Below are positions 8,736 through 55,027 of a stretch of DNA of 64,000 nt, one piece after another. The first letter of the stretch is position 1, and every line of letters starts with the position of its first letter. Made by a program: the position numbers and the translations under genes. Origin of the DNA: Tubulanus polymorphus. Lineage: Eukaryota; Animalia; Nemertea. Where the stretch lies: positions 13,356,850 to 13,420,849 of the forward strand of contig NC_134029.1 of the NCBI RefSeq assembly GCF_964204645.1. The letters run 5' to 3'. Below the pieces are notes generated by a model. The model saw only the letters and a program-made list of their open reading frames with translations, was not told the DNA's origin and did no database searches.

Positions 8736-8737
8736 AT

Positions 8738-27690: not shown

Positions 27691-27752
27691 TTCAGATCAG
27701 AGTACTAGAGTACTAGACACCACTCATCACCACAAGTTTTTTTTCCTTATAA

Positions 27753-30700
27753 ATGGGAGAGAGTGAGTACCAGACAGAAAACAATAATGTTAATAAAAAT
27801 CAATATTATTGCCCATATTGTAAAAAATACATCGATAAATCTAATAAATCTAAACATGAAAAATCTTCAAATCATATAAAAAATGTAATAGATTTTGAAA
27901 CTCCAGAAAATTCCAATGAAAGAAAAGAAAGATTAGAAAATATGAATGTGGATGAAATGAAATGTGAAGTTTGTAATGAATTTATAGTAAAAAGGAATTA
28001 TAATAGACATCTCGAATCACAAAAACACCACCAAAATTTGAGTAATAATGTTTTAGGAAAAAATTATTTTGACGATAAACCTCAAAAAGTAAAAAAACCA
28101 ACTTCAAAAACTAAATCCATTTCAAATAAACCTTACATGGAAAATGTTAGAAATTATATTGATTCACTAGAAATAAAAGATACAATTGAAATTTTAGAAA
28201 CATTACATAGTAAAATTGGTCCTGCAGCTATTATATTTAGATTTTTTAAAGGTACAACAATAGAAGATTATAGTACATTTAATGAAATAATAGAAAAAAT
28301 ACTAGATTTGATAACAGATGTTGAATATCCAACAATTAGTATCTCTGGGATAGTAAGTTTTATTAAGTCAGAAGAAAAAATGAATTATAATATTCAAACA
28401 CACTCTGAAGAAATAATTTCAAAAACACAAATAAAAGAGAAGTTAGAAAAAATATTTAATGAATTTAAACGTCATATTGAAGAAAGATATTTTGAGGGTT
28501 CTGGCTTAACATTGAACGAAATTATATATTTAGATTTAAATGTTTATAATACAAAAAAGAATAAAACATCAAAAAGTAATAAAATGTTTAAAAATGATTC
28601 AAACTTTACAACAGAAAAGGATATTAAAGCATCATCTTATATTAAATTACCATTTACAACAAAAGCAGTAATAAATGTTCAAAATGAAGATAATAAATGT
28701 TTTCTATGGTCAATTATTAGTTGCTTACATCCAACACAGGAAAATGTTTGTAGAATAACAGATTATCGGAAATATGAAACATTATATAAAATTGATCAAT
28801 ATCCAGTAACTATAAAAATGATACCCAAAATAGAAAAAATTAATAATTTAAAAATAAATGTATTCGAATTAATGCAATAACCAAAGACAAAAGGTGAAAA
28901 TATTAAAGATTATACATTGGAAGCTTTATATTTAACAGAATATTATGATGATGAAAATGCTATAGATTTGTTATATTATAAAAAAGATGAAAATGAACAT
29001 TATATGTGGTTAAAACAAATTGATTTATTCTTTAGAACAGAAAGTGATCATCATCGTAAAATTTATCTATGTAGAAAATGTTTATCTAAATTTATGACTG
29101 AGAATACATTATTAAAACATAAAGAATTATGTGATAATAAAGATTTTTGTGAATTAATAATGCCAACAGAAAAAGATTATAAATTGAAATTTACTAATCA
29201 TAATTTTAAGAATATTGTTCCATTTGTAATTTATGGGGATTTTGAATCGTTGAATAAAGAATTAACTGATCAAGATAGAAAAGAAATATATAACAAAAAG
29301 CAATTATTAAAATCGATGGATAAAGGAAATGAATTAAATGAAGACGCAACACAAGACCCACCAATTATAAATACAATTAAAAAAGTTCATCAAAGAGCTG
29401 CTGCTTATGGAATTTACATCAAATCAAATTATCCCGAATTATATGAAAGTCAATATATTTCTTTTAGAGGTGAAAATGTAGTTAATGATTTTTGTGACAA
29501 AATGATTGAATTAGAAAGTGATTTTGCAAAATTATTAAACAAAAATAAAAGAATAGTTATGACAAAAGAAGATGAAATTGATTTTAATTATGCAACTCAT
29601 TGTTGTTATTGTGAAAAACGTTTTTATTCATTTGATAAAAAAGTTAGAGATCATGATCATTTAAATTCAAAATATCGTGGAGCTGCTCATGAAGATTGCA
29701 ATTTACAAGCTAAGAAAGTTAATTTCGTACCAATATTATTTCGTAATTTATCAGGCTATGATACCCATCTATTTATAAAACAATTATCGGGAAAATTGGG
29801 CGCAATTAATCAAGAAATAGAAGAATATAATGCTATGAATGGTGTAAATGTAAGAAAATATGATTTTAAACTATTAGCTAAAACATCTGAAAATTATATT
29901 TCATTTCAATTTGGTTGCATTAGATTTTTAGATTCTTATAGATTTCTAGCAAGTTCATTAGATAATTTATCAAAAAGTTTAGTTGATAATGATTTTGTTA
30001 TAACTCGATATTATTTTCCAAATGAACAAGATTTTAAATTATTGAGATATAAAGGCGCAATTCCTTATTCATTTTATAAAACACACAATGATTTTAATGT
30101 AACAGAATTATTAAAAGATCAATTTTATGATCAATTAAAAGAGGAGAATGTGTAAGACGAAGTGTTTAATAGAACATTAAATATTTGGAACCATTTTAAG
30201 ATGAAAAATCATGGCGAATTAGTTGATTTATATTTAAAATCAGATGTTATGATATTGGCTGACATATTTGAAAAATTTAGAGAAGTTAATTTGAATCATT
30301 TTAATGTTGATCCTTGTTATTGCTACTCTAGTCCTGGTTTAACCTGGCAATGTGGTTTAAAATATACAAATGTAGAATTAGATTTATTAAAAGAACCAGA
30401 CATGGTTTTATTATTTGAAAAATCAATTAGAGGTGGAATTAGTGGTGTTATGGGAGATAGATATTTTAAAGCAAATGATGAATATAAATTATTATATATT
30501 GACGCCAATAATTTATATGGTTGGGCAATGATGCAACCTCAACCATATAAAAATTTTATATTAACAGAATTTGAAAGTGATGATAAAACTAATTGGGAAA
30601 GCGCAATTTTGAGTTTAGAAGATGAAGCACCAATTGGTTATTTCTTTGTAGTTGATTTAGAATATCCTGAAAATATAAAGTTTAAAACAAGAAACTTACC

Positions 30701-32812
30701 TTATTGCCCAGAACATTTAACTGGAGATGATAGTTATTTAAGTGAATACCAGAAGAAAATAAAACCGAAAGATCATGTTTTTACAGAAAAATTACTTACT
30801 CAAAATAATAAATACAATATATTGTCCATTATAGAATGTTAGAATTTTATCTAAAACAAGGAATGAAATTAAAGAAAGTACATAGATATATTGAATTTAA
30901 TCAATCGAAGTGGTTAGAAAAATATATAGATTTCAATACTCAACAGAGAACAATATCAAAAACAGATTTTGAAAAAGATTTCTTCAAATTAATGAATAAT
31001 AGTTTTTATGGTAAAACATGTGAAAATATTAGAAATAGAAATGATATTGAATTAGTAAATAATTCTGAAAGATTAAGACAGTTACAATCAAGTCCTAGAC
31101 ATTAAGGAAATTAAAGATTTGAAGATTATTTAACAGCAGTTAAATTAAAAAGAACATCAATGAAATTTAATAAACCTATATTTATTGGTTCGACTGTTTT
31201 AGAAGTATCAAAATTATTAATGTATGATTTTTATTATAATGTTTTACAACCACTTTTTGGGGAAAAGCATATTGAAATATTATATTTTGATTCTGTAACA
31301 GCTGACACCCCAATATTATTAAAATGTAATGATAAAATATTGATAAGAAGAATTTCAGAAATAATTCCAAAACAAAATGAATGTTATATTTCATATCGAG
31401 AAAAAGAATTAATACAAATAAATGGTTTAATGGATGTTTGGACAAGAAATGGATGGAAAAAATTAAAGAATATTATTAGGCATAAAACAAATAAGAAAAT
31501 CTATAGAGTTAGAACTAAATTAGGATTTGTAGATGTTACAGAAGATCATAGTTTAATTAAACGAAATGGTGATGAAATAAAACCAACTGATATAAAAATT
31601 GGAGATGAATTATTACATAAAAGATTTTTCCAAAGAATGAATCATATGTCATTTGATGAAATAATTGATAATATTTATAATATAGAACCCGAAACATTAG
31701 AAGAAAAAGAATATTTTATCAAAGGATTTTTCATGGGTGATGGTTCAGCAGGTGTGTATAATTATGTAAATCGCACTCAATATTGCTGGTATTTATGCAA
31801 TCAAGACTTAAAATTATTAGAAAGAATAAAGAAATTTCTGTGAAGAAGTTTATCCAAATAAAACATTTAAAATCATGGATGTTATGAAATCAACAGCAGT
31901 TTATAGAATACTTGTAAATAATCCTAAAGATTTTGCTATAAAATATAATGATGAATTCTATATTCATGCAATAGTTAAAAGTAATACTTCAACAAAAGAA
32001 AAGATAGTTCCAGATTATGTATTAAATGCAAAAAATAATTTAAGAAAATGGTTCTTCATTGGATTCTATGCTGCAGATGGTTCAAAAAGTTTCAAAAACC
32101 GCAAAACAATATCTTTAGCTCAAAAAGGAAAAGTTGCTATATCAGGATTGAATATATTATGCAGTTCATTAGGATTTAATATGAATATTGGATTGATTAA
32201 ATCTAAACCAAATTGCTTTAATTTAAGCCATGTAGAAAATGAGTTAACAGAAGAAGTTAAGGATTTATTTGAAATATATAACCCAACTGACTATGTTTAT
32301 GATTTATCAACAGATAATGGAACATTCAATTCTGGGTTCCCATTAATCCAAAAAAATACCGACGCCTACATACTAAAAATCAAGACAAATGACATAACAA
32401 AAGACTAAAAACATTAAAACATCATTTTGATTTTAGCAATTATCCCAAAGATCATGAACTATTTAGCAATGGTAATAAAAAGATTCCTGGTAAATTTAAA
32501 GATGAATTAGGGGGTGATGAAATGATTGAATTTGTTGGGATAAGAAGTAAAATGTATAGTTACAGAACAAAAGATCATGAAGCTAAAAAGTTAAAAGGAA
32601 TAACAAAACATGTGGTTGATAAACATATAGAATTTCAAGATTATATAAAGTGTTTATATAAATCAATTGTAATGAAACACAAAATGAATTGTTTAAGATC
32701 AGAAGATCATGAGAGGTACATTAATGAAGTTGAAAAAACTAGTTTAAATCCATTTGATGATAAAAGGCATATTTTAGATGATGGTATAAAAACATTACCT
32801 TATGGTCATTAA
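27753..32812 (+). pseudogene. pPolB polyprotein (Zn fingers, OTU-like protease, exonuclease with EndoVII-like insert, polymerase) containing an intein
   Basis: DNKCFLWS...HY, YGDFES, RDHDH...RGAAH..CN, NLSGYD, YLKSDV, YIDANNLYG, KLMNNSFYGK, YFD/TD, RSKMY; stops at 28878, 30153, 31103 and frameshifts near 30817, 31838, 32405. Confidence 0.95.
31292..32357 (+). mobile_element. Intein with LAGLIDADG homing endonuclease (~355 aa after correcting a +1 frameshift)
   Basis: Inserted between YFD and TD; block A SVTADTPILL, block B VDVTEDHSL, KGFFMGDGS and IGFYAADGS, block F YVYDLSTDNGTF, end LIQKN/T; absent from copies A and C. Confidence 0.95.
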
Positions 32813-34139
32813 AAAAAAAAAAAAAAATCATAAAATCAATATCATCATACTCGAAATCACTATTGGCTTCTTCATTTTCATTTAATTGTTTAGGTTCTTC
32901 TTCCATTTCATTTTTCTCATTTAAATAAAGTTCTATCTTGTTCCACATTTCATCTCGCTCTCTTTGTTTCTTTTTGTTTGTTAATTCATCAAATGGAATT
33001 ATAATATCTATGTTTAAATAATTTACAATCTTATTTAAAAAGAATTCATAATTTATTGAATCTGTTATTCTATTTTCCAAATAATACATTAATATTTGTT
33101 TGAATATTTTTTTTATATTTTTCATATCTTCTTCTGTTAATTTAGGTTTTTCATAATAATCGTTAAATAATAAATATAAATACATTTTCTTTTGTTTTGT
33201 GTTAAATGTTGACGGAATAATTGTTTTTATAATATCTTTTTTAGTTATTTCACCATTTTTATTTTCTATTATTTTCATTTTTTCAAGCCATTGCATATAT
33301 TCTGGTGTATGATCTTCTATAGAAAATATTTTAAAAATTTCATCTAGATAATTTAATTTTGGATCTATGAGAACATTTCTAGTTTTTTCTTCACCCAATA
33401 AATTCTTTTGCCATCCACATTCATTACAAAATAACACAGTACCTTCTTGTCTTAAGGTCGCATAACTACATTGTGGACATTTTCGTTTATAATTTATTGG
33501 TAATAGATCTTCATTAAGCTCCTGGTATTTTCTTACGTTTTCTTTATGTTTTATTGTTCTATTATGTAGATTTGAATTACTTGTTGTAATAATCAATTTA
33601 CAATATTTACAATAATATGTTTTTCTTGTTAATTCATTATATTGTTTTTCTAACATTTCATCTGTTTCATTATTATCTGGTAACGTTTTCTCATATTTTA
33701 TTTTTTCTAATAATTTTTTTTTTCTTTCATTGAATTCAGTTTCAAATTTATTAGAAATTTTATCTATATGTGCTTTACGAAATTGATGATTCTCCCAATC
33801 TTCTGTATTTTCAGGGCTATATTTCATTCGACAAGGCTCACAGAAATGATCTTTTATATTATCCATATCATAGAATAAGAAAGGTCTTTTCCAAATAACT
33901 TCAGGTTCAACTTCGGCAGAATTACTATTACTTTTATTACTATCAACATTAGCCGTTGCGCCATTAATTCTACACTTCTCTGAATGTTTTTTAACATATT
34001 TTCTTGAGAATGATTTATTACATTTTGGGCAGTTTAGTTTAGGGGGTTTATAATTTTCATCATGTTTTTTCATATGTCGAGCCATATTACTTTTTCTTAG
34101 AAGTTCGCCACAAATTTCACATGCTATCTTCTCATCCAT
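32739..34139 (-). CDS. Multi-zinc-finger protein with C-terminal VLTF3-like (poxvirus A2-like late transcription factor) domain
   Basis: Four C2H2/C2HC fingers, CPQC...CNECG ribbon, then SINYEFFLNKIVNYL and KKQRERDEMWNKI; open frame; the last ~30 codons probably result from a poly-T length change at 32811-32827. Confidence 0.72.
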   Translation of the reverse strand: MDEKIACEICGELLRKSNMARHMKKHDENYKPPKLNCPKCNKSFSRKYVKKHSEKCRINGATANVDSNKSNSNSAEVEPEVIWKRPFLFYDMDNIKDHFCEPCRMKYSPENTEDWENHQFRKAHIDKISNKFETEFNERKKKLLEKIKYEKTLPDNNETDEMLEKQYNELTRKTYYCKYCKLIITTSNSNLHNRTIKHKENVRKYQELNEDLLPINYKRKCPQCSYATLRQEGTVLFCNECGWQKNLLGEEKTRNVLIDPKLNYLDEIFKIFSIEDHTPEYMQWLEKMKIIENKNGEITKKDIIKTIIPSTFNTKQKKMYLYLLFNDYYEKPKLTEEDMKNIKKIFKQILMYYLENRITDSINYEFFLNKIVNYLNIDIIIPFDELTNKKKQRERDEMWNKIELYLNEKNEMEEEPKQLNENEEANSDFEYDDIDFMIFFFFFNDHKVMFLYHHLKYAFYHQMDLN

Positions 34140-34207
34140 TTATTTAGGAAAGATTTTATTAAAATTAATTTTTAGTGATATGCGGTAATTTTTTTATGTT
34201 ATAAATA

Positions 34208-34593
34208 ATGGTAGAATAAAAAGAATACAGAATATTTGTTGATTCTAGAAAACTTACAAATTATAAATCACATAATTTACTAGTTCAATTAGATAGAGAA
34301 TTTAAGAATTGTGTAGATTTAAAATTAGTTAATATAAGTTTATTGACCCAACAAAAACATTTGAAGCAACTAAAGATACAATTTGTAATTCTGGTTTATT
34401 AAATATTTTACCATTAAAAAATGTCAAACAATTTGGAACGCAAATAAGTTATAATTTAGCTGAATGTGATTTCAAACCTTGTATTCCACATTTCAATAAT
34501 TTTAAATTAGAAATAAGAAATCATAATGGTTATTTAATTGATTTGAATAACTTTCCTGTAATTCATGAATTAGTTATAAGATGTAAAGAGTAA
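34208..34593 (+). pseudogene. Penton with early stop and ~376-bp internal deletion
   Basis: 5' and 3' ends match 49184-49945, joined near 34342. Confidence 0.85.
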
Positions 34594-34609
34594 TTTTTTC
34601 ACTATATAA

Positions 34610-34967
34610 ATGAATATAACTGTTGGACCGAGTATATGTTTTGGGTTTGATTTTAAACGTGAGAAAGAAATGAAATTTAACGTTAATGATGTAATTACAC
34701 GTATTAAAAATATTGCATTTTCTAATGAAACAACATTTGAGTATAAAACAACAATAGATAAAGAAACTTTAAATGTAGAAAAGATTACTAATTTAATTAG
34801 AGAATCTTTAAGATTTTATGAATTAGATGAAGATTTTATCATCGATGATATTGAAAAAAATAATAATTGAAATATATACAAATGAAACTAGTAATGAAAT
34901 AAATGTTGAATTAATCATAAATAAGTTAACTAAATATTTTGATGATAGTAATTTTTTTGATAAATAA
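34610..34967 (+). pseudogene. 118-aa family protein, frameshifted in an A-run
   Basis: Matches 4681-5037. Confidence 0.82.
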
Positions 34968-35189
34968 ATGAGTGATAATAAGTGGATAATAACTGGATTA
35001 TATAATGGCGCATTACTATCAGTTGGAACTGTTGGTTATTCAATGGTATTAAAAAAAGTATTCAAAATGGGAAGTGTTAATGTTGATAGATTTGATATAA
35101 ATGATATTTTAAAATTAACATTAGCAGTTACTTTATCTAATTTAACAATTGATTATTTAGAAAAACAAAAATATATTCCTTCCATATAA
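34968..35189 (+). CDS. 73-aa small hydrophobic Polinton protein
   Basis: Three near-identical copies in the window. Confidence 0.85.
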   Translation: MSDNKWIITGLYNGALLSVGTVGYSMVLKKVFKMGSVNVDRFDINDILKLTLAVTLSNLTIDYLEKQKYIPSI

Positions 35190-35213
35190 ATGCGTAATTT
35201 TTTTGCTAAATAA

Positions 35214-35636
35214 ATGGCTTCTGCATTTATAACTATTATAGGATCGGCAATTGTTAACGCTTTAGCATTTACTGGTGGTGGATATTTATTTAAACATATT
35301 GATAAAAATAGTTCATTAGGAGAACAAAGAAGACATAACTTAGCGTTAGAGAAATACAATAAAGCTGCAGAAGAATATAGAGAAAAGAGACAAAACTATA
35401 TGGATTACGTCAATAAAGAATTATATGATCGGAAGATTTCACACAGAGATTTTCAATCAGTTGATGATGCAATGAGTTTATATAACGCGGTAACCAATAA
35501 AGAAAAATTACATCTATACAAACCTAAATTATCAGATTATTATACCCCAAGTAAAGAACAACAGAAATATGAAATAATATGGATTTTAGGGGGAACTGTT
35601 ATTGTTATATTTGTTGCTTATAAGTTTACTAATTAG
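35214..35636 (+). CDS. 140-aa protein with hydrophobic N- and C-termini and central charged helix
   Basis: Intact; matches 48154-48576. Confidence 0.85.
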   Translation: MASAFITIIGSAIVNALAFTGGGYLFKHIDKNSSLGEQRRHNLALEKYNKAAEEYREKRQNYMDYVNKELYDRKISHRDFQSVDDAMSLYNAVTNKEKLHLYKPKLSDYYTPSKEQQKYEIIWILGGTVIVIFVAYKFTN

Positions 35637-35655
35637 TAATTTTTTTGCTAAATAA

Positions 35656-36078
35656 ATGGAAGATAAAGTTGATAATATTGATATTATTCCTCATGATATA
35701 AATAAAACTAAATTAAAAATATATTTAGAAAAACAAATATTAGAATTTGAAAGTGACTTAAAAGTTAAAAAGAAAAAATATCTAAAAAGTAAAATTATAT
35801 ATTATTTGATTATAAGTGGTTCGGTTACAATTAGTTCTGTAATAACATTTCTAGCAATATTCTCACCATTAACACCTTTAGCTATATCAATTGGCGTGTT
35901 AGGATTAAGTTCAAGTGTTTTAACCGGTATAAGTTCAAAATTAAATATAAAAAGTAATAAAGAAAAAATTAAAACTAATATAAAAGAAATTAATAAATTG
36001 AAGAATACACTAGATTATATAATAAGTTTAAATGGTCATATAACAGTTGAAGAACAAGATAAATTATTAAAAGAATAA
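35656..36078 (+). CDS. Predicted membrane protein (144-aa family, last 4 codons lost to a stop)
   Basis: Matches 47701-48135 and 1961-2386. Confidence 0.83.
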   Translation: MEDKVDNIDIIPHDINKTKLKIYLEKQILEFESDLKVKKKKYLKSKIIYYLIISGSVTISSVITFLAIFSPLTPLAISIGVLGLSSSVLTGISSKLNIKSNKEKIKTNIKEINKLKNTLDYIISLNGHITVEEQDKLLKE

Positions 36079-36106
36079 ATAAATTATTAATTTTTTAATT
36101 ATATAA

Positions 36107-37508
36107 ATGGTAGATAGTTTTCCAAAAGCATTCCAATATAATAAATCAATTAAATATAATATTCCAGCAATAGATTTTAATAAAGATATTACATATAGAA
36201 ATGAAGTTTTAGATTCATTAACTAATTTAGAAATTTATGTTACTGAAACTAATAATTTTAATGCAAAGATGGAAAATATATTTCATGTATATTTAATTAA
36301 TTTTAAAATTGAATTAAAATTTAATTGAAAGATGAAAAACAATGGTTATTAAAATCTAATATGAAGTATTGGCAGAACCAATTAAATTTTGCTGTTTATT
36401 GTGCAACAACAGGTTGTGGAATTAGTTGGAATGATCATTTGAATAATTCTAAATATAAATTAATTCAAAGTTTATTTAGATTTCATACATACTTTCAAAT
36501 AAGAATAATATTAAATGAATTAGAGTGCGCTTTACCAGGATCTAGGTATTTCAAAGAATTAGATAATAATATTAATTTATCAAAGTTTTATAAAATTTGT
36601 AATGAATTTAATATAGATATAAATAATTCTGATTTTAGAACAAAAATTGGAACAATAAGATCACTTCCTTGCCCTAAAAAGATTGCAGAATATTGTGCAC
36701 TTCCCATACCATCTAATAGTTTGTATAATATCTATAGTAATAAATTAGGTTATGGTAAAATAGAAACTTAGGATTTAGAAACATTAAATTTCAATAAATT
36801 ACCGACATTTCATGATAATTTAAAACAAGAAAACAATAATGGTTGGGTTTATTTCATTTTAGAAAATAATGAAGGTTTTACAAAATCAGGTATACAAAGA
36901 ATAAATCAATCTATTAGAACTTATTTGATGTGTATTCTAGGTGCACAAGTTGAAACAAGATCACCGATAATTGGAAATTTGAATACATCATTCGATACAC
37001 AAAAACCATTTAAAGTTTTATTTGAAGATTCCATACATAATGATAAAAATAGATCGATTCCAGAAAACATTGTAAGATATCAAAATTATTTAGATAAATC
37101 ACATATTAGATTAAATTATTGTATAGGCCCTAATCTATTAATTATTTCTAATGATTTAGTATTAAAGATGGGAAACATAATTGGTTATAATAATCTAATT
37201 AAAACTGCAACAATAAATAATTCATTTGGATTGAATGATATAAATAAAAAGATAATTACTGCTCCAAAATTAATGGAAGGTGAAAAAAATAAAAAACATA
37301 TTCAATCAACAGAAACTAAAACTAAAAATATTAAATTAAATTATGACTCCAAAATAAAAGATTACAATACATCAGAAGATATAAAACTGGTAAGATTCAA
37401 CATGAAATAATTAAACTAAATGATGATAATAAATCCCATGAAAATACTAAATTAGCTTTAACTTGTATAGGAATTGTAATCGGAGGAATATTATATTTTA
37501 AATTTTAA
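36107..37508 (+). pseudogene. 462-aa family protein, disrupted
   Basis: Fragments 36107, 36325, 36925 are near-identical to 46296-47684. Confidence 0.88.
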
Positions 37509-37524
37509 TTTTTTTATTATATAA

Positions 37525-38956
37525 ATGGATGTAGAAGGTGGAGAAGATATTGGAATGGATCCTTTTGATGAACCTGGTATAAGTGATGAACAACCACCTT
37601 TGATGAATCAAGTTTTAATGACGGTAATGAGCCAGGATATAATAATAATTTAAATATGCCTGATTATATTAAAAATGCAGAATCACAATTAAATCCTGAA
37701 AATTTAGACCCAGATTTAGTAAAACAAGATTTAGATAATTTAAACAAAATACCTAAATTAGAACGTATAATTGAAAAATCTAAACTTAACATAAATGATG
37801 AAGACGTTGGACTTTTAGCAGATCAATTAAAATTTTTAGATAATGGTAAATGTTATTATCGTTTGAAAGGTGATTATTATATTGATATCACTTATAAAAA
37901 TAATAAAAATAAAATATTATCAGAATCAACTTTAGAAAAATTAAAACTAGATAGAATTAAAAGAATAAGTAATAGTAATGAAATAACTGATATTACACAA
38001 AAAGAAATAGATGATAATATAGACGTATTTAAACAAAGAATTAATGAATTATTTGAAATAATCAAAAAGAAATCAGAAACAGAAACAACTTCTGAATAGA
38101 ATATAACTTCCAAAAATAGTAAACTTAAATCAAATAAAGTTCCAATTGAAAAACTTTTACCGAATGGATTACTTGATGCAACAGATCTAGAATTAGAAGA
38201 TTTAGATATATTTTCTGATAAAGCAATTAGAGAAATTATTAGTATAAGACTTGCATCTGATAAAATTGCGCATAATAAAAGTATAAGGGATCAAAAAATT
38301 ATGTATTTGGAAAAGGAATTAACTTATAAAAATAAAGAAATAGAACAATTAAAATTAGATAGAGATAATAAAGTTATTGAAGAAATCGAATTTAAAAAAA
38401 GAAATGCATATTTAGAAAAAGAAATTAATAATTCAAAGGATAATTTAGAAGTACAAAAAGAAGAAATTAAATTATTATAAAAATCATATGATTATAATAT
38501 AAATAGATTAAAAGTTATTTTTAAAGATTTATTGATAAAACCAAATTCTGAAATATCACTGAAAGATAGAATAAAGTTATTATTTAAATTAGAAGGAATA
38601 ACAATTCTTTCAATTCTAACAGCTGTAACTATGTTATTTACAACAATTGGTTTAGCAATATCAAATGCTTTGAAATCTACTCCTACTCCCAATAAACCGG
38701 ATAAACCCCAGATAATAATTCTATACAAGATAAAGTTAAAGATGGTTTAAAGAAATTAGCAAAATATTTATGGGAACTATCTAAAAAATCTGCTGCAGCT
38801 TTACCAGGAATTATTGCATCAATTGTTGGTTTTATATTGAAATCTGCAGGAAACATTATTAACTTTGCTGCTGAACATATTATTTTATTTTTAATTACAG
38901 TTGTAAGTGCTATTATTTTTGGGTTAGTAAATATGATATCAAAAAATATCAAGTAA
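37525..38956 (+). pseudogene. Long variable protein with conserved hydrophobic C-terminus, disrupted
   Basis: Starts MDVEGGEDI in TAAATG; C-terminus (LKDRIKLLFKLEGITILS...ALPGIIASIVG) shared with 44559-44987. Confidence 0.8.
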
Positions 38957-38996
38957 CCATGATAAAAAATAAATAATTAATTTTTTTGTTAAATAA

Positions 38997-40245
38997 ATGA
39001 GTGGGAGTTATATAAGTCCTTCTAAGATTTCTAGAATATCTAATGCTATTAAAGCAGAAAGATCACATCATATAATTACTCATAACCCTTCAAATATTAA
39101 TCCCGATGAAACTTTATATGTTAGAATTCCTAGATTAACACAAAATACTTTTTATGTTCCAAATAGTATTTATTTATCAGCCGATATAAAAGTAACTGGC
39201 CATGATGACAATTATGTTGTTGATAATGTTGGAAGATATTTGATTAAAAAATTAACTATAAAGATTGGTCCGGAAACATTTTTCTCATTAGATGATCATA
39301 ATTTATTTATGCATTATAAAGATTTATGGTTAACTAAAGAAAATAGAAATAATATGATATTTCAGGGTATTCAATCGGAAAACCATAATAAATAAAGATC
39401 AGGAGCTAATGACGCAATAGTAACTCGTGCCACAGATAATTTGATTAAAAAGATTTATGGAAGCAAATATAAAATTCCATTAGACTTTGAATTGATAAGT
39501 AATAATGCACCTTTATATAAATACGCAATTCAAGAAGATATTATATTTGAGATAACATTTGCTCCTGTAAATGAAATTGTATTATCTAGCGTTGTTAAAG
39601 ATATGGGTTATAAATTATCGAATATATGTTTAGAATATAACACAGTAACTAATGAAAATATTGCTAGCACAATTCAAACTCAATACAATCAAGGATTTTC
39701 ATTATTATATGATTATATTGATAAATTTAAAACTGTAACTATTAATGCAAATGATGAAATAATTAATGAGAATATTAACTTCCCAAGAAGATCTATTAAA
39801 GGTATATTAATATTTTTTACAATTGCAACATATTCTAATGGCGCAATAAAGGTAGATAATTATTATAATCCAGAAATAACAAAAGTAGAAATAACTATTG
39901 AAGGAATAGCAAATAAAATATTTTGTCAAGGAATGAGAATGATTGATCAATGGCCAGAAATTAGAAAACATTTTATGAATGAAAAAGTAAAATCATTTGA
40001 AAATTGTAATATTAATCAAATTTATAATTATGCCGGCAATAAATATGCATTATGGTTAGATTTTAGAACAACAGAGGATAATTCATTACATGGTTCTGGG
40101 AAAAAAACTACAGAACACTAAAGATGGAATACAATTATTCATGAAAAAGAAAAGAGGAGACAAAAATTTTAAAATGCACATTTATATTATATCTGACGCG
40201 CAATTAAAGATTGTAAATTCACAATTAGATAGTATTCAATATTAG
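38997..40245 (+). pseudogene. Major capsid protein (probable double jelly-roll), one stop and one frameshift
   Basis: ~415 codons, beta-strand-type composition, duplicated at 43275-44516, adjacent to integrase/ATPase; fold inferred from size and context. Confidence 0.72.
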
Positions 40246-40275
40246 AAATATAAAGTTAAAATTAAGGATATATAA

Positions 40276-41402
40276 ATGGGTGGTAAAAAAACTCCTAATA
40301 CTAAAGAACAATATTTAAGAAATTTATATTACAACACTGAGAGTTCGGTTGCTTATTCTTCTACCGAAAATATATGGCGTCAAGTAAAACAAGATAAATT
40401 AGATAAGATAATCCCACAAAATTTAGTTAAATATAAAGATATAAATGAATTTATGTTAGAACAACCAACATATACAACACATAAAAAAATTGTTAGAAAA
40501 TATAAAACTCGTAAAACTATGGTAAGTTATCTAGATCAACAGTGGCAAGGAGATTTAATTGATATGAAAAATGTTAAGAAAGATAATGATGATTATTGGT
40601 GGATATTGAATATAATTGATATTTTAGTCGTTATGTATGGAGTTTCCCACTTTATAGAAAAGATGCTGTACAAACATCAAATGTTTTAAGAAAATTTCTT
40701 TCGGATGATAAACTAAAACCAGAAAAAATACAATTTGATGATGGAAAAGAGTTTGATAATTCACTTGTTCATGAACTCTTAGACAATCATAATATTAAAT
40801 ATTTTTCAACAAAATCGGATAAAAAAGCGGCAGTTGTTGAACGATTTAATAGAACATTAAGAACAAGAATGTGGAAATATTTTACAGCAAATGATACTTT
40901 TAAATGGATTGATGTTTTACCAAAATTGGTAGAAGGATATAATAATTCTTATCATTCTTCTATTGGAATGAAACCTATTGATGCTAGAAAACCTGAAAAT
41001 GCTGAAATTGTTTGGAATAATTTATATGGAGCATTTCTTGTAGATGATTTTGGTGAACCTAAATTTAAAGTTGGTCAAAATGTTAGAATTTCTAAGTATA
41101 AAAAGATATTTGACAAAGGATACGATCGAAATTTTACTAGGGAAATATATAAAATAAAAAAGGTAATAACAACAAACCCATATGTCTATAAATTAGAAGA
41201 TTTAGATGGTGAAGAAGTTGATGGCTAATTTTACGAAGAAGAATTAAGTTTAACTACTGAAAATCTAGAACAAGAATGTAAAATTGAAAAAGTATTAAAA
41301 ACAAAAACTATTAAAAGAAAAAAATATTCTTTAGTAAAATGGGTTGGATGGCCAGATAAATTCAATGAATGGATATTATCAAGTAAAATTAAAAATATAT
41401 AA
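40276..41402 (+). pseudogene. Retroviral-like (rve) integrase with C-terminal chromodomain
   Basis: WQGDLIDM, IDIFSRY (frameshifted), QFDDGKEF, VERFNRT, YNNSYHSSIGMKP, FKVGQNVRI, tail IEKVLK...LVKWVGWPDKFNEWI. Confidence 0.93.
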
Positions 41403-42014
41403 ATGAATAAAGAATTATTTATATTTGAGTCTCATAATATGTTAATATCTGGTGTAACAAATTGTGGAAAAACTTATTTTATATTAAATTTATTAGAAAC
41501 TGTTTATGAAAACTATTTTGATAATATAGTATTATTTTGCCCAACATATGAATTTAATCAAACTTATGATAGAAATATTACTAGAAATAATAAATTTATT
41601 ATATTAGATCCTAAAACAGTAAAGGAAAATTTAGATAATTGTATTAAAATAGCAATTGATATTTATAAAGGATCAAATAAATTATTCATTATAGATGATT
41701 GTGCTAATCTACATGATTCAAAAGTTAGAGAAAGTGAGTTATGTTATTTAGCTTTCTCTGGGAGACATTTCGGGATAACAACATGGGTTTTAAATCAAAA
41801 ATATAATTCAATTGTTAAAGACTTTAGGGAGAATATAAGATTTCTAGTTTTATTCTACAATAAAGATAGAAAATCCATGCAACAATCATTGGAAGAAAAT
41901 CAAATTATACCTACTGAATTATATGATGAATATATGAATAAATTAAAGAATAATAAAGGTTCAAAATTATTACTGAGACTACAATTTCCATATGAATATA
42001 AATTTATAAAATAA
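41403..42014 (+). CDS. A32/FtsK-like genome packaging ATPase
   Basis: Walker A GVTNCGKT, Walker B LFIIDD, GRH motif, LNQ motif; intact 203 aa. Confidence 0.92.
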   Translation: MNKELFIFESHNMLISGVTNCGKTYFILNLLETVYENYFDNIVLFCPTYEFNQTYDRNITRNNKFIILDPKTVKENLDNCIKIAIDIYKGSNKLFIIDDCANLHDSKVRESELCYLAFSGRHFGITTWVLNQKYNSIVKDFRENIRFLVLFYNKDRKSMQQSLEENQIIPTELYDEYMNKLKNNKGSKLLLRLQFPYEYKFIK

Positions 42015-42029
42015 CTATTTATATACCTA

Positions 42030-42410
42030 TGTATTAGATACCCTATTAGATACCCCAATACCTGATACCCTAATACCTGATACCCTAATACCTGATACCC
42101 TATTAGATACCTTAAATACTTGAAACCCCCTTTTTTAAAATAAATATTATTTATACAATTTTCAACCAATTTATTTTTATTATTTCAACTAATATATGAA
42201 TAAGTTTGAAAATAATAAAGGTTATTTATTATTACTAAGGTTTCAACATAAATTTAAAAAAGAAATATAATTTAAGGTATTTTCAAATAATATGTATTAG
42301 ATATGTATTAGATATGTATTAGATATGTATTAGATACCTTAAATACCTTAAATACTTAAAACCCCCTTTTTATTTTCTATTATTTTATACAATTTTCAAC
42401 TAATATTATT
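42030..42410 (+). repeat. Repeat-rich non-coding junction between copies B and C
   Basis: 15-bp ccctaatacctgata x3, 11-bp atatgtattag x4, and two diverged direct copies of tattagataccttaaatac...aaaccccct...ttatacaattttcaac (~42101 and ~42328). Confidence 0.85.
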
Positions 42411-42435
42411 ATTTGAATTAAATATAATTAATATC

Positions 42436-43242
42436 TTAATCACTTTCACTATCAGACCCTAACAATTTATTCAAACTCACTACCGTATCATCATCAATAG
42501 TTGTTTTATTGTTATACTTATTCATCCTTTCTACCGCATCATCAAAGGTTTCTTCTTTATCTTTCACCAAAAGTGTGCCCACATAATCTTTAATATCAAT
42601 ATCTGTAACTATATCACCATGTGGGTGCCATACGGCACCATTTTCATTATCATCTTTATTAGTGTTTGCTCCTAATATTTCATTTATTGTGTTTGATCCT
42701 AATATTTCATTAGCATCAGTTAAATCTAATTCATCTTTATTAGGTGTTGCTAATAAAAAATCTTCATATAATTCTTTACCATTTACTTTTTTATTTGAAA
42801 CAAATTTTGTAACATATCTAAATGGGTGTTCTATAAATTCTGTTAAACCAACACGTTCTATTACATTGGTAATATGTACCCTTGTATTCATATGTTTATT
42901 CCAATTTGATGGAGCGTTTGAAAATTCACCTTTACAATAATCACAATAATTTCTATTTTCACTAACATTTAATATTATTGCATTATTATATGTAGAAGGT
43001 ATTACATTATTAGATGTAGTAGGTATTACTGTAGTAGGTATTACATTATTATCAATTACATTACTTAAATTATCAACAACTTCACTTTTATTATTATCGA
43101 TTTCTATTAGTTTAGTTTTATAAATTTTGAAAATAGGATCAAATATCAAAGCTATATTACAAGGTATTACATAATATAAACCATCATTATTTTCATGTGT
43201 ATCGATGTATGGAATATGTTTATATACTTTACCACCTTCCAT
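42436..43242 (-). CDS. 268-aa orphan protein with one U1/matrin-type zinc finger and acidic tail
   Basis: TAAATG start, open frame, CDYC...HMNTRVH, short NNVIPT repeats. Confidence 0.75.
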   Translation of the reverse strand: MEGGKVYKHIPYIDTHENNDGLYYVIPCNIALIFDPIFKIYKTKLIEIDNNKSEVVDNLSNVIDNNVIPTTVIPTTSNNVIPSTYNNAIILNVSENRNYCDYCKGEFSNAPSNWNKHMNTRVHITNVIERVGLTEFIEHPFRYVTKFVSNKKVNGKELYEDFLLATPNKDELDLTDANEILGSNTINEILGANTNKDDNENGAVWHPHGDIVTDIDIKDYVGTLLVKDKEETFDDAVERMNKYNNKTTIDDDTVVSLNKLLGSDSESD

Positions 43243-43274
43243 TTATTATATAAATATCTATTAAAGTTAAAATT

Positions 43275-44516
43275 TTAATACATAACACTATGAAATTGTG
43301 AATTCACAATATTTAATTGCGCGTCAGATATAATATAAATATGCATTTTGAAATTTAGGCTTCCCTTTTTCTTTGTCATGAATAATTGTATTCCATCTTT
43401 TGTATTTTGTAATTTTTTTCCAGAACCATGTAATGAATTATCCTCTGTTGTTCTAAAATCTAACCATAATGCATATTTATTACCGGTATAATAATCAATT
43501 TGATTAATATTACAATTTTCAGATGATTTTACTTTTTCATTCATAAAATGTTTTCTAATTTCTGGCCACTGATCAATCATTCTCATTCCTTGACAAAATA
43601 TTTTATTTGCTATTCCTTCGATAGTTATTTCTACTTTTGTTATTTCAGGATTATAATAATTATCAACATTTATTGCGCCATTAGTATATGTTGCAATTGT
43701 AAAAAAATATTAATATACCTTTAATAGATCTTCTTGGGAAGTTAATATTCTCATTAATTATTTCATCATTTGCATTAATAGTTACAGTTTTAAATTTATC
43801 AATATAATCATATAATAATGAAAATCCTTGATTGTATTTAGTTTGAATTATACTTGAAATATTTTCATCAGTTACTGTATCATATTCTAAACATATATTC
43901 GATAATTTATAACCCATATCTTTAACAACGCTACAATTTCATTTACAGGAGCAAATGTTATTTCGAATATAACATCTTCTTGAATTGCATATTTATATAA
44001 AGGTGCATTGTTATTTATCAATTCAAAGTCTAATGGAATTTTAAATTTGCTTCCATAAATCTTTTTTATCAAATTATCTATAGCATTAGTTAATATTGCA
44101 TTATGCGCTTCTGATCTTAATTTATTTTGGTTTTCTGATTGGATTCCTTGAAATATCATATTATTTCTATTTTCTTTAGTTAACCATAAATCTTTATAAT
44201 GCATAAATAAATTATAATCATCTAATGAGAAAACTGTTTCTGGTCCAATCTTTATTGTTAATTTTTTAATCAAATATCTCCCAACATTATCAACAACATA
44301 ATTATTATTATAACCGATTACTTTTATATCGGCCGATAAATAAATACTATTTGGAACATAAAAAGTATTTTGTGTTAATCGAGGAATTCTAACATATAAA
44401 GTTTCATCGGGATTAATATTTGAAGGATTATGAGTAATTATATGATGTGATCTTTCTGCTTTAATAGCATTAGATATTCTAGAAATCTTAGAAGGACTTA
44501 TATAACTCCCACCCAT
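43275..44516 (-). pseudogene. Major capsid protein, two frameshifts
   Basis: Fragments 43887, 43681, 43275 match 38997-40245. Confidence 0.72.
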
Positions 44517-44558
44517 TTATTTAACAAAAAAAAATTAATTATTTATTTTCTATCATGG

Positions 44559-46279
44559 TTACTTGATATTTTTTGATATCATATTTACTAATCCAAAAAT
44601 AATAGCACTTACAACTGTAATTAAAAATAAAATAATATGTTCAGCAGCAAAGTTAAGAATATTCCCAGCAGATTTCAATATAAAACCAACAATTGATGCA
44701 ATAATTCCTGGTAAAGCTGCAGCAGATTTTTTAGATAGTTCCCATAAATATTTTGCTAATTTCTTTAAACCATCTTTAACTTTATCTTGTATAGAACTAT
44801 TATCTGGGGGTTTATCCGGTTTATTGGGAGTAGGAGTAGATTTTAAAGCATTTGATATAGCTAAACCATTTGTTGTAAATAACATAGTTACAGCTGTTAG
44901 AATTGAAAGAATTGTTATTCCTTCTAATTTAAATAATAATTTTATTCTATCTTTCAATGATATTTCAGAATTTGGTTTTATCAACAAATCTTTAAAAATA
45001 ACTTTTAATTTTTTAATATGATTAAGATCATATGATTTTAATAATGTATCTCTTTCTTTTTCCTGTAATTCTTTGTTATATTTTAAATCATCTATTTCTT
45101 TTTCTAAAGCTAACTATCTGCTTTCATAATCAGCTTCCTCGATTAATTGAAGATCTCTATTTAATTCTAATTGTTTTAATTCTTCATTTGCATTAGTTAA
45201 TTCTTTTTCTAACATGGTTATTTTAGAAAATCTCATCTTAATATTAGCAATTTCACCAGCTGATTCTTGCCTACCTTTAATTTCTCTACGTGCTTGTTCA
45301 GGAAATGCTTCTAATTCATCATCAGTTAAATCAAGTAATCCTTTTTCTAGTAAAGATTGTATTCGATTTATTCCAGTTTCAGAACCAGATGTATCTGTTA
45401 TACTATTCATAAGTTCTTCTGAATCTCTTAATCTATCAATTTGTTTTTCAAATGTCAATTGTAATTGACTTGAATCATTATCAATTTGTTGAGTGTCTCT
45501 TCTCGATGTTTCGGGCGTTGAAGATCTTAATTTATCTAATCGATTTGCAAAATCTTCATCAGTTTCTGGATCAACATCAGTAGGATTTGGATTTGGATTT
45601 TTAAATGGTGAATATTTGTTTATATCAATATTAGGAATTGGTTCCTCTTCATTTATTCTATCGATTGCATTCCATATAATTCTGAGAAATTCTCTACCAC
45701 CTTTTGAACCTTCAATTGTAGATAATGCTCGCATTCCAGGTTCAAAAATATTTTCTTGACCCATTCTAGATAATTGAATTGATACAGTATTCCTATTTAA
45801 TTCAAGATTATAATACCATGAATCATTTTTAAATTCTAAATTATTCGTGAAATATGGGTCATCTTTAAAAATTTGTTCTACAACATCTTCAGTATCAATT
45901 TCATCTATTACAACTTTTGGTAATAATTCGTTAACAAGTGTATCTGTTACTCTAGATTTCATTCTATATAATTCCATAGGTTTATCAGGATATTTTTCTT
46001 GTTGTTTTTCTAATAGTTCCATAAATTCTTTTCTTTCTCTTCTAGTTGAAATTCTACCACTTTCAGGAGCTTTTAAATATTTATTTAATTTTTCACGTAA
46101 TTCGGAATTAATTCCATCATAATCATCATCATAATCATCATCTTCACCTTAATTAGTATTATATTCTGGCTCATTACCGTCATTAAAACTTGTTTCACTA
46201 AAATCAGGTTGTTGTTCATCACTTATACCAGGTTCATCTAAAGGATCCAATGGATATCTTCTCCACCTTCTACATCCAT
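44559..46279 (-). pseudogene. Long variable protein with conserved hydrophobic C-terminus, disrupted
   Basis: Start MDVEGGEDI at 46279; ORF pieces 45114-46022 and 44559-44987. Confidence 0.8.
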
Positions 46280-46295
46280 TTATATAATAAAAAAA

Positions 46296-47684
46296 TTAAG
46301 ATTTAAAATATAATATTCCTCCGATTACAATTCCTATACAAGTTATAGCTAATTTAGCATTTTCATGGGATTTATTATCATCATTAGTTTTAATTATATC
46401 ATGTTGAATAATATCAGTTTTTATATTTTCTGATGTATTGTAATCTTTTATTTTAGAATCATTATTTAATGTAATATTCTTAGTTTTAGTTTCAGTTGAT
46501 TGAATGTGTTTTTTATTTTTTTCACCTTCCATTAATTTTGGAGCAGTAATTATCTTTTTATTTATATCATTCAATCCAAATGAATTATTTATTGTTGCAG
46601 TTTTAATTAGATTATTATAACCAATTATATTTCCCATCTTTAATACTAAATCATTAGAAATAATTAATAGATTAGGGCCTATACAATAATTTAATCTAAT
46701 ATGTGATTTATCTAAATAATTTTGATATCTTATAATGTTTTCTGGAATCGATCTATTTTTATCATTATGTATAGAATCTTCAAATAATACTTTAAATTGT
46801 TTTTGTGTATCAAATGATGTATTTAAATTTCCAATTATTGGGGATCTTGTTTCAACTTGCGCACCTAAAATACATATCAAATAAGTTCTAATTGATTGAT
46901 TTATTCTTTGTATACCGGCTTTAGTAAAACCTTCATTATTTTCTAAAATGAAATAAACCCAACCATTATTGTTTTCTTGTTTTAAATTATCATAAAATGT
47001 CGGTAATTTATTGAAATTTAATGTTTCTAAATCCTTAGTTTCTATTTTACCATAACCTAATTTATTACTATAGATATTATACAAACTATTAGATGGTATG
47101 GGAAGTGCACAATATGCTGCAATCTTTTTAGGGCAAGGAAGTGATCTTATTGTTCCAATTTTTGTTCTAAAATCAGAATTATTTATATCTATATTAAATT
47201 CATTACAAATTTTATAAAACTTTGATAAATTAATATTATTATCTAATTCTTTAAAATATCTAGATCCTGGTAAAGCGCACTCTAATTCATTTAATATTAT
47301 TCTGATTTGAAAGTATGTATGAAATCTAAATAAACTTTGAATTAATTTATATTTAGAATTATTCAAATGATCATTCCAACTAATTCCACATCCTGTTGTT
47401 GCACAATAAACAGCAAAATTGATTTGGTTCTGCCAATACTTCATATTAGATTTTAATAACCATTGTTTTTCATCTTTCAATTTTTTTAAATTAATTAAAT
47501 ATACATGAAATATATTTTCCATCTTTGCATTAAAATTATTAGTTTCAGTAACATAAATTTCTAAATTAGTTAATGAATCTAAAACTTCATTTCTATATGT
47601 AATATCTTTATTAAAATCTATTGCTGGAATATTATATTTAATTGATTTATTATATTGGAAAGCTTTTGGAAAACTATCTGCCAT
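46296..47684 (-). CDS. 462-aa conserved Polinton protein with C-terminal membrane anchor, function unknown
   Basis: Intact ORF; homologues in A and B. Confidence 0.88.
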   Translation of the reverse strand: MADSFPKAFQYNKSIKYNIPAIDFNKDITYRNEVLDSLTNLEIYVTETNNFNAKMENIFHVYLINLKKLKDEKQWLLKSNMKYWQNQINFAVYCATTGCGISWNDHLNNSKYKLIQSLFRFHTYFQIRIILNELECALPGSRYFKELDNNINLSKFYKICNEFNIDINNSDFRTKIGTIRSLPCPKKIAAYCALPIPSNSLYNIYSNKLGYGKIETKDLETLNFNKLPTFYDNLKQENNNGWVYFILENNEGFTKAGIQRINQSIRTYLICILGAQVETRSPIIGNLNTSFDTQKQFKVLFEDSIHNDKNRSIPENIIRYQNYLDKSHIRLNYCIGPNLLIISNDLVLKMGNIIGYNNLIKTATINNSFGLNDINKKIITAPKLMEGEKNKKHIQSTETKTKNITLNNDSKIKDYNTSENIKTDIIQHDIIKTNDDNKSHENAKLAITCIGIVIGGILYFKS

Positions 47685-47700
47685 TTATATAACTAAAAAA

Positions 47701-48135
47701 TTAATAATTAACTAATTGTTTTAATAATTTATCTTGTTCTTCAACTGTTATATGACCATTTAAACTTATGATATAATCTAGTGTATTCTTTAATTTATTA
47801 ATTTCTTTTATATTAGTTTTAATTTTTTCTTTATTACTTTTTATATTTAATTTTGAACTTATACCAGTTAAAACACTTGAACTTAATCCTAACACACCAA
47901 TTGATTTAGCTAAAGGTGTTAATGGACTGAATATTGCTAGAAATGTTATTACAGAACTAATTGTAACCGAACCACTAATAATCAAATAATATATAATTTT
48001 ACTTTTTAAATATTTTTTCTTTTTAACTTTTAAATCATTTTCAAATTCTAATATTTGTTTTTCTAAATATATTTTTAATTTAGTTTTATTTATATCATGA
48101 GGAATAATATCATTATTATCAACTTTATCTTCCAT
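47701..48135 (-). CDS. 144-aa predicted membrane protein
   Basis: Intact; three copies. Confidence 0.85.
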   Translation of the reverse strand: MEDKVDNNDIIPHDINKTKLKIYLEKQILEFENDLKVKKKKYLKSKIIYYLIISGSVTISSVITFLAIFSPLTPLAKSIGVLGLSSSVLTGISSKLNIKSNKEKIKTNIKEINKLKNTLDYIISLNGHITVEEQDKLLKQLVNY

Positions 48136-48153
48136 TTATTTAGAAAAAAATTA

Positions 48154-48576: not shown

Positions 48577-48602
48577 TTATTTAGCAAAAAAAAATTATGC
48601 AT

Positions 48603-48824
48603 TTATATGGGAGGAATATATTTTTGCTTTTCTAAATAATCAATAGTTAAATTAGATAAAGTAACTGCTAATGTTAATTTTAAAATAACATTTATATCAA
48701 ATCTATCAACATTAACACTTCCCATTTTAAATACTTTTTTTAATACCATTGAATAACCAACAGTTCCAACTGATAGTAATGCTCCATTATATAATCCAGT
48801 TATTATCCACTTATTATCACTCAT
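48603..48824 (-). CDS. 73-aa small hydrophobic protein
   Basis: Intact; three copies. Confidence 0.85.
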   Translation of the reverse strand: MSDNKWIITGLYNGALLSVGTVGYSMVLKKVFKMGSVNVDRFDINVILKLTLAVTLSNLTIDYLEKQKYIPPI

Positions 48825-49166: not shown

Positions 49167-49183
49167 TTATATAGTGAAAAAAA

Positions 49184-49945: not shown

Positions 49946-49962
49946 TTATTTTACATATTTTC

Positions 49963-55003: not shown

Positions 55004-55027
55004 CAATTACCATTTTTTAAGTACGAA

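What the first reader, a model, noticed from the sequence alone, without database searches (positions are those of the whole stretch)
27740..42420. Candidate system: an endogenous virophage-like Polinton of a pox-like giant virus in an animal
Three independent signals in one element point to NCLDV contact: pox-type late promoters, a VLTF3-like gene and a giant-virus-type PolB intein, alongside integrase, capsids and packaging ATPase. Established: integrated mavirus virophages share promoters with their giant virus and reactivate on infection. Inference: this family may lie latent in the genome and be switched on by helper infection, possibly protecting the host. These particular copies are decayed, so any function would reside in intact relatives.
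Basis: inference. Interest (0 to 1): 0.85.

Follow-up and report, generated by a model that had tools for sequence, protein, structure and literature searches.

The report
Animal Polinton with poxvirus-style promoters
A virus-like element present in many copies in an animal genome starts almost every gene at a poxvirus-style signal, and some copies carry a poxvirus-type late transcription factor, so it likely multiplies as a parasite of a pox-like virus that has not yet been seen in this host.

Summary
Window 27.74-42.0 kb is a decayed copy (A) of an AT-rich Polinton: protein-primed polymerase, integrase, double-jelly-roll capsid, A32 ATPase, no protease found. Two further copies (B, C) lie in the window, and read depth implies tens of copies per genome. 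13 of 14 unrelated gene families start at TAAATG, against about 5% of other ATGs and 22 of 188 starts in AT-matched giant-virus loci. The starts fall into a T-tract class and an A-rich class, as described for poxvirus late and intermediate promoters. The VLTF3 gene is real and pox-type (47.8 against 10.4 bits). The intein is real and of giant-virus type, but it belongs to one Polinton clade and shows no pox link. B and C lack both intein and VLTF3 yet keep the promoters, so the three signals are not equal or independent. Best reading (0.55): a satellite of a pox-like virus. No helper, silence, reactivation or host protection was shown. VLTF3 in Polintons and entomopoxvirus-associated PLVs are published; I found no paper on the promoter match. 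This scan noted the same idea earlier in another animal genome (e1-8580207, unchecked).

The parts
27753..32812 (+). Copy A protein-primed DNA polymerase B gene (N-terminal zinc fingers, endonuclease VII-like insert), broken into seven ORF pieces
   Evidence: DNA_pol_B_2 35.4 bits; Endonuclease_7 weak
31292..32357 (+). Intein in polymerase motif C with LAGLIDADG homing endonuclease, frameshifted; absent from copies B and C
32739..34139 (-). VLTF3/A2-like late transcription factor: four C2H2-type fingers, a zinc ribbon, then the VLTF3 core (about 33143-32943); A-rich promoter class
34208..34593 (+). Putative minor capsid gene, shorter than its counterparts in B and C
   Evidence: identity unproven
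34610..36090 (+). Four small conserved genes (86, 71, 140 and about 140 aa), each behind a T-tract + TAAATG start
   Evidence: the first 140-aa gene has relatives in 12 of 80 metagenome loci
36107..37510 (+). Conserved gene of unknown function (462 aa in copy B), broken in A; T-tract + TAAATG
37525..38956 (+). Long coiled-coil gene with hydrophobic C-terminus, broken; T-tract + TAAATG
38997..40245 (+). Double-jelly-roll major capsid gene, broken; T-tract + TAAATG
40276..41400 (+). Retroviral-type integrase gene, broken; A-rich + TAAATG
41403..42014 (+). A32-like packaging ATPase, open; A-rich + TAAATG
   Evidence: Pox_A32 46.8 bits
42020..42430 (.). Duplicated non-coding block with short tandem repeats at the tail-to-tail junction of copies A and B; possibly terminal sequence
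42436..58500 (-). Copy B: same structural module (89-93% identical); intein-free polymerase interrupted by a 3.8-kb insert; a 117-aa-type gene where A has VLTF3 and a 268-aa gene where A has the integrase; same promoter classes
1..8740 (-). Copy C: partial, B-like, intein-free, same promoter classes

Best explanation
This is one decayed copy of a multi-copy Polinton family whose genes start at poxvirus-style TAAATG signals and one subfamily of which carries a pox-type late transcription factor; the family likely multiplies as a satellite that borrows the post-replicative transcription machinery of a pox-like cytoplasmic virus. Shown: gene set, promoter motif and its two classes, pox affinity of VLTF3, purifying selection, many copies. 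Inferred: once element DNA meets the helper's polymerase, the A-rich (intermediate-like) promoters would fire first for VLTF3, integrase, ATPase, cargo genes and (in copy B and L083) the polymerase. The T-tract (late-like) promoters would then fire for the capsid module, with the element's own VLTF3 as an optional booster or competitor. New copies would be inserted into the germ line by the integrase. How an integrated nuclear copy first reaches a cytoplasmic polymerase is unexplained. Protection of the host is not part of this claim.
For: Motif at 13 of 14 unrelated gene starts against 5.5% background. Controls: 128 of 243 starts in 38 pox-like loci, 22 of 188 in 46 AT-matched giant-virus loci, 3 of 335 in 66 GC-richer loci with related polymerases. 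T-tract (at least 5 of 6 T at -13..-8) at 21 of 31 starts against 1 of 75 non-start TAAATG sites. The T-run ends 6-7 nt before TAAAT in 7 of 7 structural-module genes, the spacing given for vaccinia late promoters (PMC5294985). The A-rich class fits the intermediate description (PMC11980589), and A2L is itself an intermediate gene. T at -3 and the absence of room for a leader do not fit a normal host TATA promoter (own knowledge). Three unrelated cargo genes in relative L082 also start at TAAATG, and the A-rich polymerase promoter is kept in L083 at dS about 1.4. VLTF3 domain: 47.8 bits against a pox A2 profile, 10.4 against a mimivirus/phycodnavirus-type profile, shuffles at most 7.5. Of 5 hits among 1.84 billion proteins, three were zinc-finger-bearing or longer proteins that I read as Polinton-like, one was a zinc-ribbon look-alike and one a compact A2-type protein. 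dN/dS 0.08-0.42 in 13 of 13 pairs. Precedents: PLVs in entomopoxvirus occlusion bodies (PMC11296320) and promoter sharing in mavirus.
Against: No helper virus was seen, and no whole genome was available to look in. In my pox sample only 2 of 128 TAAATG starts had a T-tract as strong as the element's and 61 of 128 had T at -10, so the late-class match is qualitative; those loci repeat the same few genes. The element uses TAAATG more often than the pox loci do. The VLTF3 trees leave the Polinton proteins in an unresolved split with two pox groups on long branches: no recent capture from a known poxvirus, and no asfarvirus or egovirus sequence was in the panel. One of 77 non-pox panel proteins scored 35.5 bits, near the pox minimum of 39.1. 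VLTF3 is also kept by mriyaviruses, which lack RNA polymerase and are thought to be nuclear (PMC11253617). Coral polintovirus core genes are expressed in ordinary samples (PMC11131425). GC-rich members of the same Polinton family have no TAAATG (0 of 33 matched starts). Copy A's polymerase start is of the T-tract class, unlike B's, and lies at the edge of the AT-rich element sequence.
Confidence: 0.55

Rival explanations
1. Autonomous nuclear Polinton with a pox-derived past: promoter dialect and VLTF3 were gained long ago, and the genes are now read by host RNA polymerase II, perhaps guided by the element's zinc-finger VLTF3.
For: VLTF3 persists in RNA-polymerase-less mriyaviruses. Coral polintoviruses are expressed without a known helper. 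A cited title reports that vaccinia intermediate and late elements are targeted by host TBP (reference list only). The VLTF3 here is deeply diverged and fused to extra fingers. Tens of germ-line copies need nuclear access.
Against: B and C lack VLTF3 yet keep both promoter classes. Unrelated cargo genes carry the same start. An initiator overlapping the ATG needs a slippage-made leader, known from pox and yeast linear-plasmid polymerases (PMC6211774) and not, to my knowledge, from Pol II.
Confidence: 0.2
2. Satellite of a different cytoplasmic large DNA virus (asfarvirus-, egovirus-like or unknown), with TAAATG as a local dialect of a family-wide T-tract + TATA initiator.
For: GC-rich relatives have TATA within 14 nt of the ATG at 15 of 33 matched starts against 346 of 9789 other ATGs (L320 similar). 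This resembles the ASFV late initiator TATA with short leaders (PMC7163114). Several window starts read TATATAAATG. The intein's outside relatives include topoisomerase II and PolB of giant-virus MAGs.
Against: ASFV late genes prefer TATA; TAAAT is the vaccinia form. In the fold search pox A2 proteins took ranks 1, 2 and 4 (rank 3 unnamed) and ASFV B385R rank 17, though a pox-type sequence was in the alignment used for the model.
Confidence: 0.17
3. No regulatory meaning: TAAATG arises from extreme AT drift and tight gene packing.
For: The element is 22-25% GC. Only AT-rich relatives show the motif (11 of 38 starts in 14 loci under 30% GC).
Against: AT-matched giant-virus loci give 22 of 188 (Fisher p 2e-10 against 13 of 14). 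The AT-rich locus L101 has it at 2 of 13 ORFs. The TAA of the motif is not the upstream gene's stop. The T-tract keeps a fixed distance and is at 1 of 75 non-start sites.
Confidence: 0.05

Closest known systems
Maverick/Polinton elements of animals (Polintoviricetes; adintoviruses, PMC8502044; coral polintoviruses, PMC11131425)
   Same: pPolB, rve integrase, double-jelly-roll capsid, A32 ATPase, multi-copy integration; VLTF3 already reported in a coral subgroup; capsid 37-40% identical to proteins named from bivalves.
   Different: No protease found; pox-type initiator at nearly all genes, in two classes; motif-C intein. The word 'promoter' does not occur in PMC11131425; PMC8502044 was not searched for it.
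Entomopoxvirus-associated PLVs (Barth et al. 2024, PMC11296320)
   Same: Polinton-like elements proposed to parasitize a poxvirus; mosaic gene modules.
   Different: Those were found in occlusion bodies, encode an adenovirus-type protease and have no promoter, VLTF or intein mention (0 occurrences). This one is an endogenous multi-copy family with no physical link to a helper. Sequence relationship not tested.
Mavirus provirophage of Cafeteria (10.1101/068312)
   Same: Integrated pPolB + rve element whose promoters resemble a large virus's late promoter.
   Different: There the helper is known, and silence, reactivation and population-level protection are shown; none is shown here. The host here is inferred to be an animal.
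Poxvirus intermediate/late promoters and VLTF-3 (A2)
   Same: TAAAT overlapping the ATG; T-rich core 6-7 nt upstream or A-rich block further up; A2-type domain with zinc ribbon.
   Different: The T-tract is stronger and more uniform than in my pox sample. The factor is fused to extra zinc fingers. No RNA polymerase or capping genes were detected in the element.

Membership tests
Maverick/Polinton | protein-primed DNA polymerase B | tested here: met
   DNA_pol_B_2 above cut-off
Maverick/Polinton | rve integrase | tested here: met
   rve E 2e-4, below cut-off, in a broken piece; 71% identical DNA in L082 passes the cut-off
Maverick/Polinton | double-jelly-roll major capsid protein | tested here: met
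   model pLDDT 81.6; Z 19.0, rmsd 4.1, 314 aligned to a PBCV-1 capsid chain
Maverick/Polinton | A32-like packaging ATPase | tested here: met
   Pox_A32 46.8 bits
Maverick/Polinton | minor capsid (penton) protein | tested here: inconclusive
   253-aa candidate, DUF5901 E 0.02, no PDB sequence hit, not folded
Maverick/Polinton | terminal inverted repeats and target-site duplication | tested here: inconclusive
Group 1 Maverick-Polinton / adintovirus | adenain-like cysteine protease (most members) | tested here: not met
   no protease family among 35 ORFs; a recalled motif scan of window peptides and 80 related loci found none
Group 1/2 Maverick-Polinton versus Aquintovirus-related animal elements | placement in capsid or ATPase phylogeny with reference groups | not tested
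   no labelled reference set was at hand
Provirophage (mavirus-type lifestyle) | promoter shared with an identified helper virus | tested here: inconclusive
   matches the poxvirus class of promoter, but no helper is identified
Provirophage (mavirus-type lifestyle) | silent until helper infection, then reactivated | not testable with these tools
   needs infected and uninfected host RNA
Provirophage (mavirus-type lifestyle) | inhibits the helper and protects the host population | not testable with these tools
   no data
Poxvirus post-replicative promoters | TAAAT overlapping the start codon | tested here: met
   13 of 14 gene families
Poxvirus post-replicative promoters | late T-rich core 5-7 nt upstream, or intermediate A-rich block at about -15 to -19 | tested here: met
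   against the descriptions; 4 A-rich starts (VLTF3, orf117, B polymerase, B minor capsid) fit well, integrase and ATPase keep a T at -10
Poxvirus post-replicative promoters | [quoted passage not shown] | not testable with these tools
   needs 5'-end mapping
VLTF3 / A2 | Pox_VLTF3 domain preceded by a zinc ribbon | tested here: met
VLTF3 / A2 | origin within Poxviridae | tested here: inconclusive
   profile scores favour pox; trees unresolved, 16 and 13 rows
Giant-virus PolB motif-C inteins | same insertion site and homologous splicing domain | tested here: met
   215 hits at E 0.001 or better; YGD|S...N|TD junctions; 29 of 80 kept viral loci are named GVMAG
Giant-virus PolB motif-C inteins | nearest relative in a pox-like virus | tested here: inconclusive
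   nearest rows are other Polinton inteins; the pox-like records could not be searched whole

The most novel reading that the evidence does not exclude
An animal germ line carries a large, still-spreading family of provirophages of an undiscovered invertebrate poxvirus, wired with a copy of the poxvirus intermediate-to-late cascade. Its GC-rich relatives use an asfarvirus-like initiator, so the start signals of animal Polintons would read out which hidden large DNA virus each lineage parasitizes, and the elements might act as inherited antiviral defence.
Probability: 0.3. Interest if true: 0.9.

Novelty: new variant of a known kind. Interest (0 to 1): 0.72.

Why it matters
How animal Polintons are transcribed, and whether they are autonomous viruses or satellites, is open: no virions have been observed (10.64898/2026.06.19.733378). 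A promoter signature gives a cheap test, by 5'-end mapping or reporter assay. It predicts a pox-like virus in a host where I know of none. It also offers a way to sort Polinton families by likely helper from sequence alone.

Tried and rejected
No whole genome was held, so intact TIR/TSD-bounded copies and helper traces could not be sought. The word-indexed protein search with the VLTF3 region found nothing; the full HMMER scan did. The protein atlas gave no result. Four scans of viral contigs with capsid, polymerase, capsid alignment and ATPase found no relative. No RNA holder was listed. Amplification as free virus: run X1 showed the element enriched roughly threefold over host repeats compared with X2, but summed contig depths are no copy number, and X7 showed no pile-up of read ends; not used. 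T-tract as terminator of the upstream gene: rejected, because it is missing after the capsid and integrase genes, present before the divergently read minor-capsid gene of A, and fixed in distance to TAAAT. Pox A2 genes' own promoters were no help: 1 of 38 starts has TAAATG. An early-promoter core (recalled consensus) was never matched exactly, with one mismatch at best in 2 of 18 starts. No second pox-like cargo gene appeared in tblastn of element peptides against my viral loci, which cover only about 8 kb of each pox-like genome. PDB sequence searches with the capsid profile and the minor-capsid candidate were empty, and Foldseek against PDB gave no VLTF3 match. PHROGs named none of the window ORFs. 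Both VLTF3 trees were thinned by dereplication to 3-4 pox and 4-5 other panel rows. PMC3196450 was not held. No complex prediction was run.
Full report
Anatomy. The window holds three AT-rich (22-25% GC) blocks in a background of about 36% GC. Self-comparison shows them to be copies of one element: A at 27.74-42.0 kb (+), B at 42.4-58.5 kb (-), tail to tail with A, and a partial C at 1-8.7 kb (-). Copy A encodes, in order: polymerase, VLTF3 on the opposite strand, a putative minor capsid, four small genes, a 462-aa-type gene, a coiled-coil gene, major capsid, integrase and ATPase. The capsid model is a double jelly roll. No protease was found, and no terminal repeats or target-site duplication. 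That the host is an animal is an inference from the flanking pogo-type transposase, the LINE-like remains (my reading) and capsid relatives named from bivalves. In raw reads of run X7 the lowest bins of flanking DNA have 3-7x depth, while the intein has 159-211x, VLTF3 224-250x and the structural module up to about 980x. That gives roughly tens of copies with intein and VLTF3, and more of the capsid module. Many differences are carried by over 90% of reads, so copy A holds private decay. dN/dS is 0.08-0.42 in 13 of 13 pairwise comparisons.

Promoters. Eleven of 12 genes in A start at TAAATG. One start per unrelated family gives 13 of 14 in the window and 16 of 18 with four genes of relative L082, against 5.5% of other ATGs. 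B's polymerase and 117-aa-type gene start at TAAAATG. There are two upstream classes. Structural-module genes have a run of 6-7 T ending 6-7 nt before TAAAT (7 of 7; 21 of 31 starts against 1 of 75 non-start sites). VLTF3, the 117-aa-type gene, B's polymerase and minor capsid, the 268-aa gene, integrase and ATPase have an A-rich block instead. This follows the published late and intermediate descriptions (PMC5294985 and PMC11980589, passages). Against it: only 2 of 128 pox TAAATG starts in my sample have so strong a T-tract, and A's polymerase start is of the T class. In GC-rich relatives of the same family, 0 of 33 matched starts are TAAATG, 27 have a purine at -3 and 15 have TATA within 14 nt (background 346 of 9789). 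Those groups were picked by N-terminal patterns, and one or two rows may be false or double. The motif is thus a trait of an AT-rich subclade, not of all these Polintons.

VLTF3. The C-terminal domain passes the Pfam cut-off. A scan of 1.84 billion proteins gave 5 hits. One, P0005, is a compact A2-type protein, 63% identical to a gene in the 232-kb record L001, which I call entomopox-like from its gene content. A profile of Polinton-type domains alone scored 39 pox-type rows at a median of 44.9 bits and 77 other rows at 11.5 (maximum 35.5). The reverse test gave 47.8 against 10.4 bits, with shuffles at most 7.5. Both panels were gathered with recalled motifs and hold no asfarvirus, egovirus or mriyavirus. 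The fold search ranked cowpox and entomopoxvirus A2 first, with small gaps to other families and with P0005 in the model's alignment. Trees are unresolved among the Polinton and two pox groups, so the gain is old or from an unsampled lineage. Equal contig lengths suggest that two other VLTF3 proteins sit beside related capsids (16,883 and 12,994 bp); this is inference.

Intein. It spans 31292-32357 in motif C. Its best hits are mostly other protein-primed polymerases (up to 66% identity), followed by RNA-primed PolB and topoisomerase II; 29 of the 80 viral loci kept are named giant-virus MAGs (479 matched). In a 108-row, 119-column quick tree all 12 Polinton rows form one clade (SH-aLRT 99) with no supported outside sister. 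Hits without a clear N-terminal motif and 11 of the 29 MAG loci were left out. The intein marks one older transfer from a giant virus, later spread among Polintons, and says nothing about pox. Intein-like endonuclease insertions in Polinton polymerases have been suggested in print (PMC11071308, passages).

Mechanism. See Best explanation. The strongest point is that unrelated genes, including swapped cargo, share a start signal known from cytoplasmic viral polymerases that slip on it to make a poly(A) leader (PMC6211774 and PMC7163114, passages), while no RNA polymerase gene was detected in the element. The weakest point is access: mavirus faces the same problem, and its authors propose a helper factor entering the nucleus (10.1101/068312, passages).

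Literature. VLTF3 in coral polintoviruses and their expression: PMC11131425 (passages). PLVs in entomopoxvirus occlusion bodies: PMC11296320 (parts 1-3 of 8 and a term search). Classification: 10.64898/2026.06.19.733378 (passages and section 7), PMC8502044 (passages), 10.64898/2026.10.13.758929 (passages). Egoviruses: 10.1101/2024.03.23.586382 (passages). Mriyaviruses: PMC11253617 (passages). Searches (listings only for unread papers; open-access library) showed no paper on pox-type promoters in animal Polintons. No supplements were read, and those of the Barth and coral papers may bear on gene content. This scan's notes hold the same idea for another animal genome (e1-8580207) and a Polinton with its own TBP and TFIIB (e1-7583116). 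Both are unchecked and are not counted as support; my reading was set before I saw them.

Verdict. Observation confirmed, interpretation partly supported. New variant of a known kind; interest 0.72.

Noticed in passing
L088, L090, L100, L107, L128, L150, L161, L320: GC-rich relatives of this Polinton family often have TATA(TA) a few bases before the ATG, in L320 with a T-tract; this resembles the ASFV late initiator and may point to a different helper class.
   Followed up: partly
window 34203 and 40287 / 43228: Homology between copies A and B starts or stops at TAAAT promoters, where unrelated genes replace each other (VLTF3 against the 117-aa-type gene; integrase against the 268-aa gene), suggesting cassette exchange at promoters.
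   Followed up: partly
P0012 against P0006-P0017: The same intein clade sits in two unlike protein-primed polymerase types, suggesting homing between Polinton groups.
   Followed up: partly
window 53850-57720: A 3.8-kb insert of host-like composition splits copy B's polymerase gene.
   Followed up: no
window 58508-58702: A 195-bp palindromic, MITE-like element at the left edge of copy B.
   Followed up: no
window 25866-27365: An open 499-aa pogo/Tigger-type transposase frame just upstream of copy A.
   Followed up: no
window 35656-36078 and 47701-48135: A 140-144-aa two-helix membrane gene with a weak SLATT hit (E 0.006 and 0.026, below cut-off); SLATT genes are noted in other Polinton-like viruses.
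   Followed up: no
L082 4079-6163; L083 338-721 and 4842-5609: Close relatives (82-83% polymerase identity) carry other cargo, including an endonuclease VII/HNH gene, in another order, all behind TAAATG starts.
   Followed up: partly
L320: A nearly whole Polinton lies in a bacterial MAG, probably host DNA binned by mistake.
   Followed up: no
window 11398-11655: A frame beginning with a 2A-like 'GDIETNPGP' motif (label recalled) in a multi-copy repeat.
   Followed up: no
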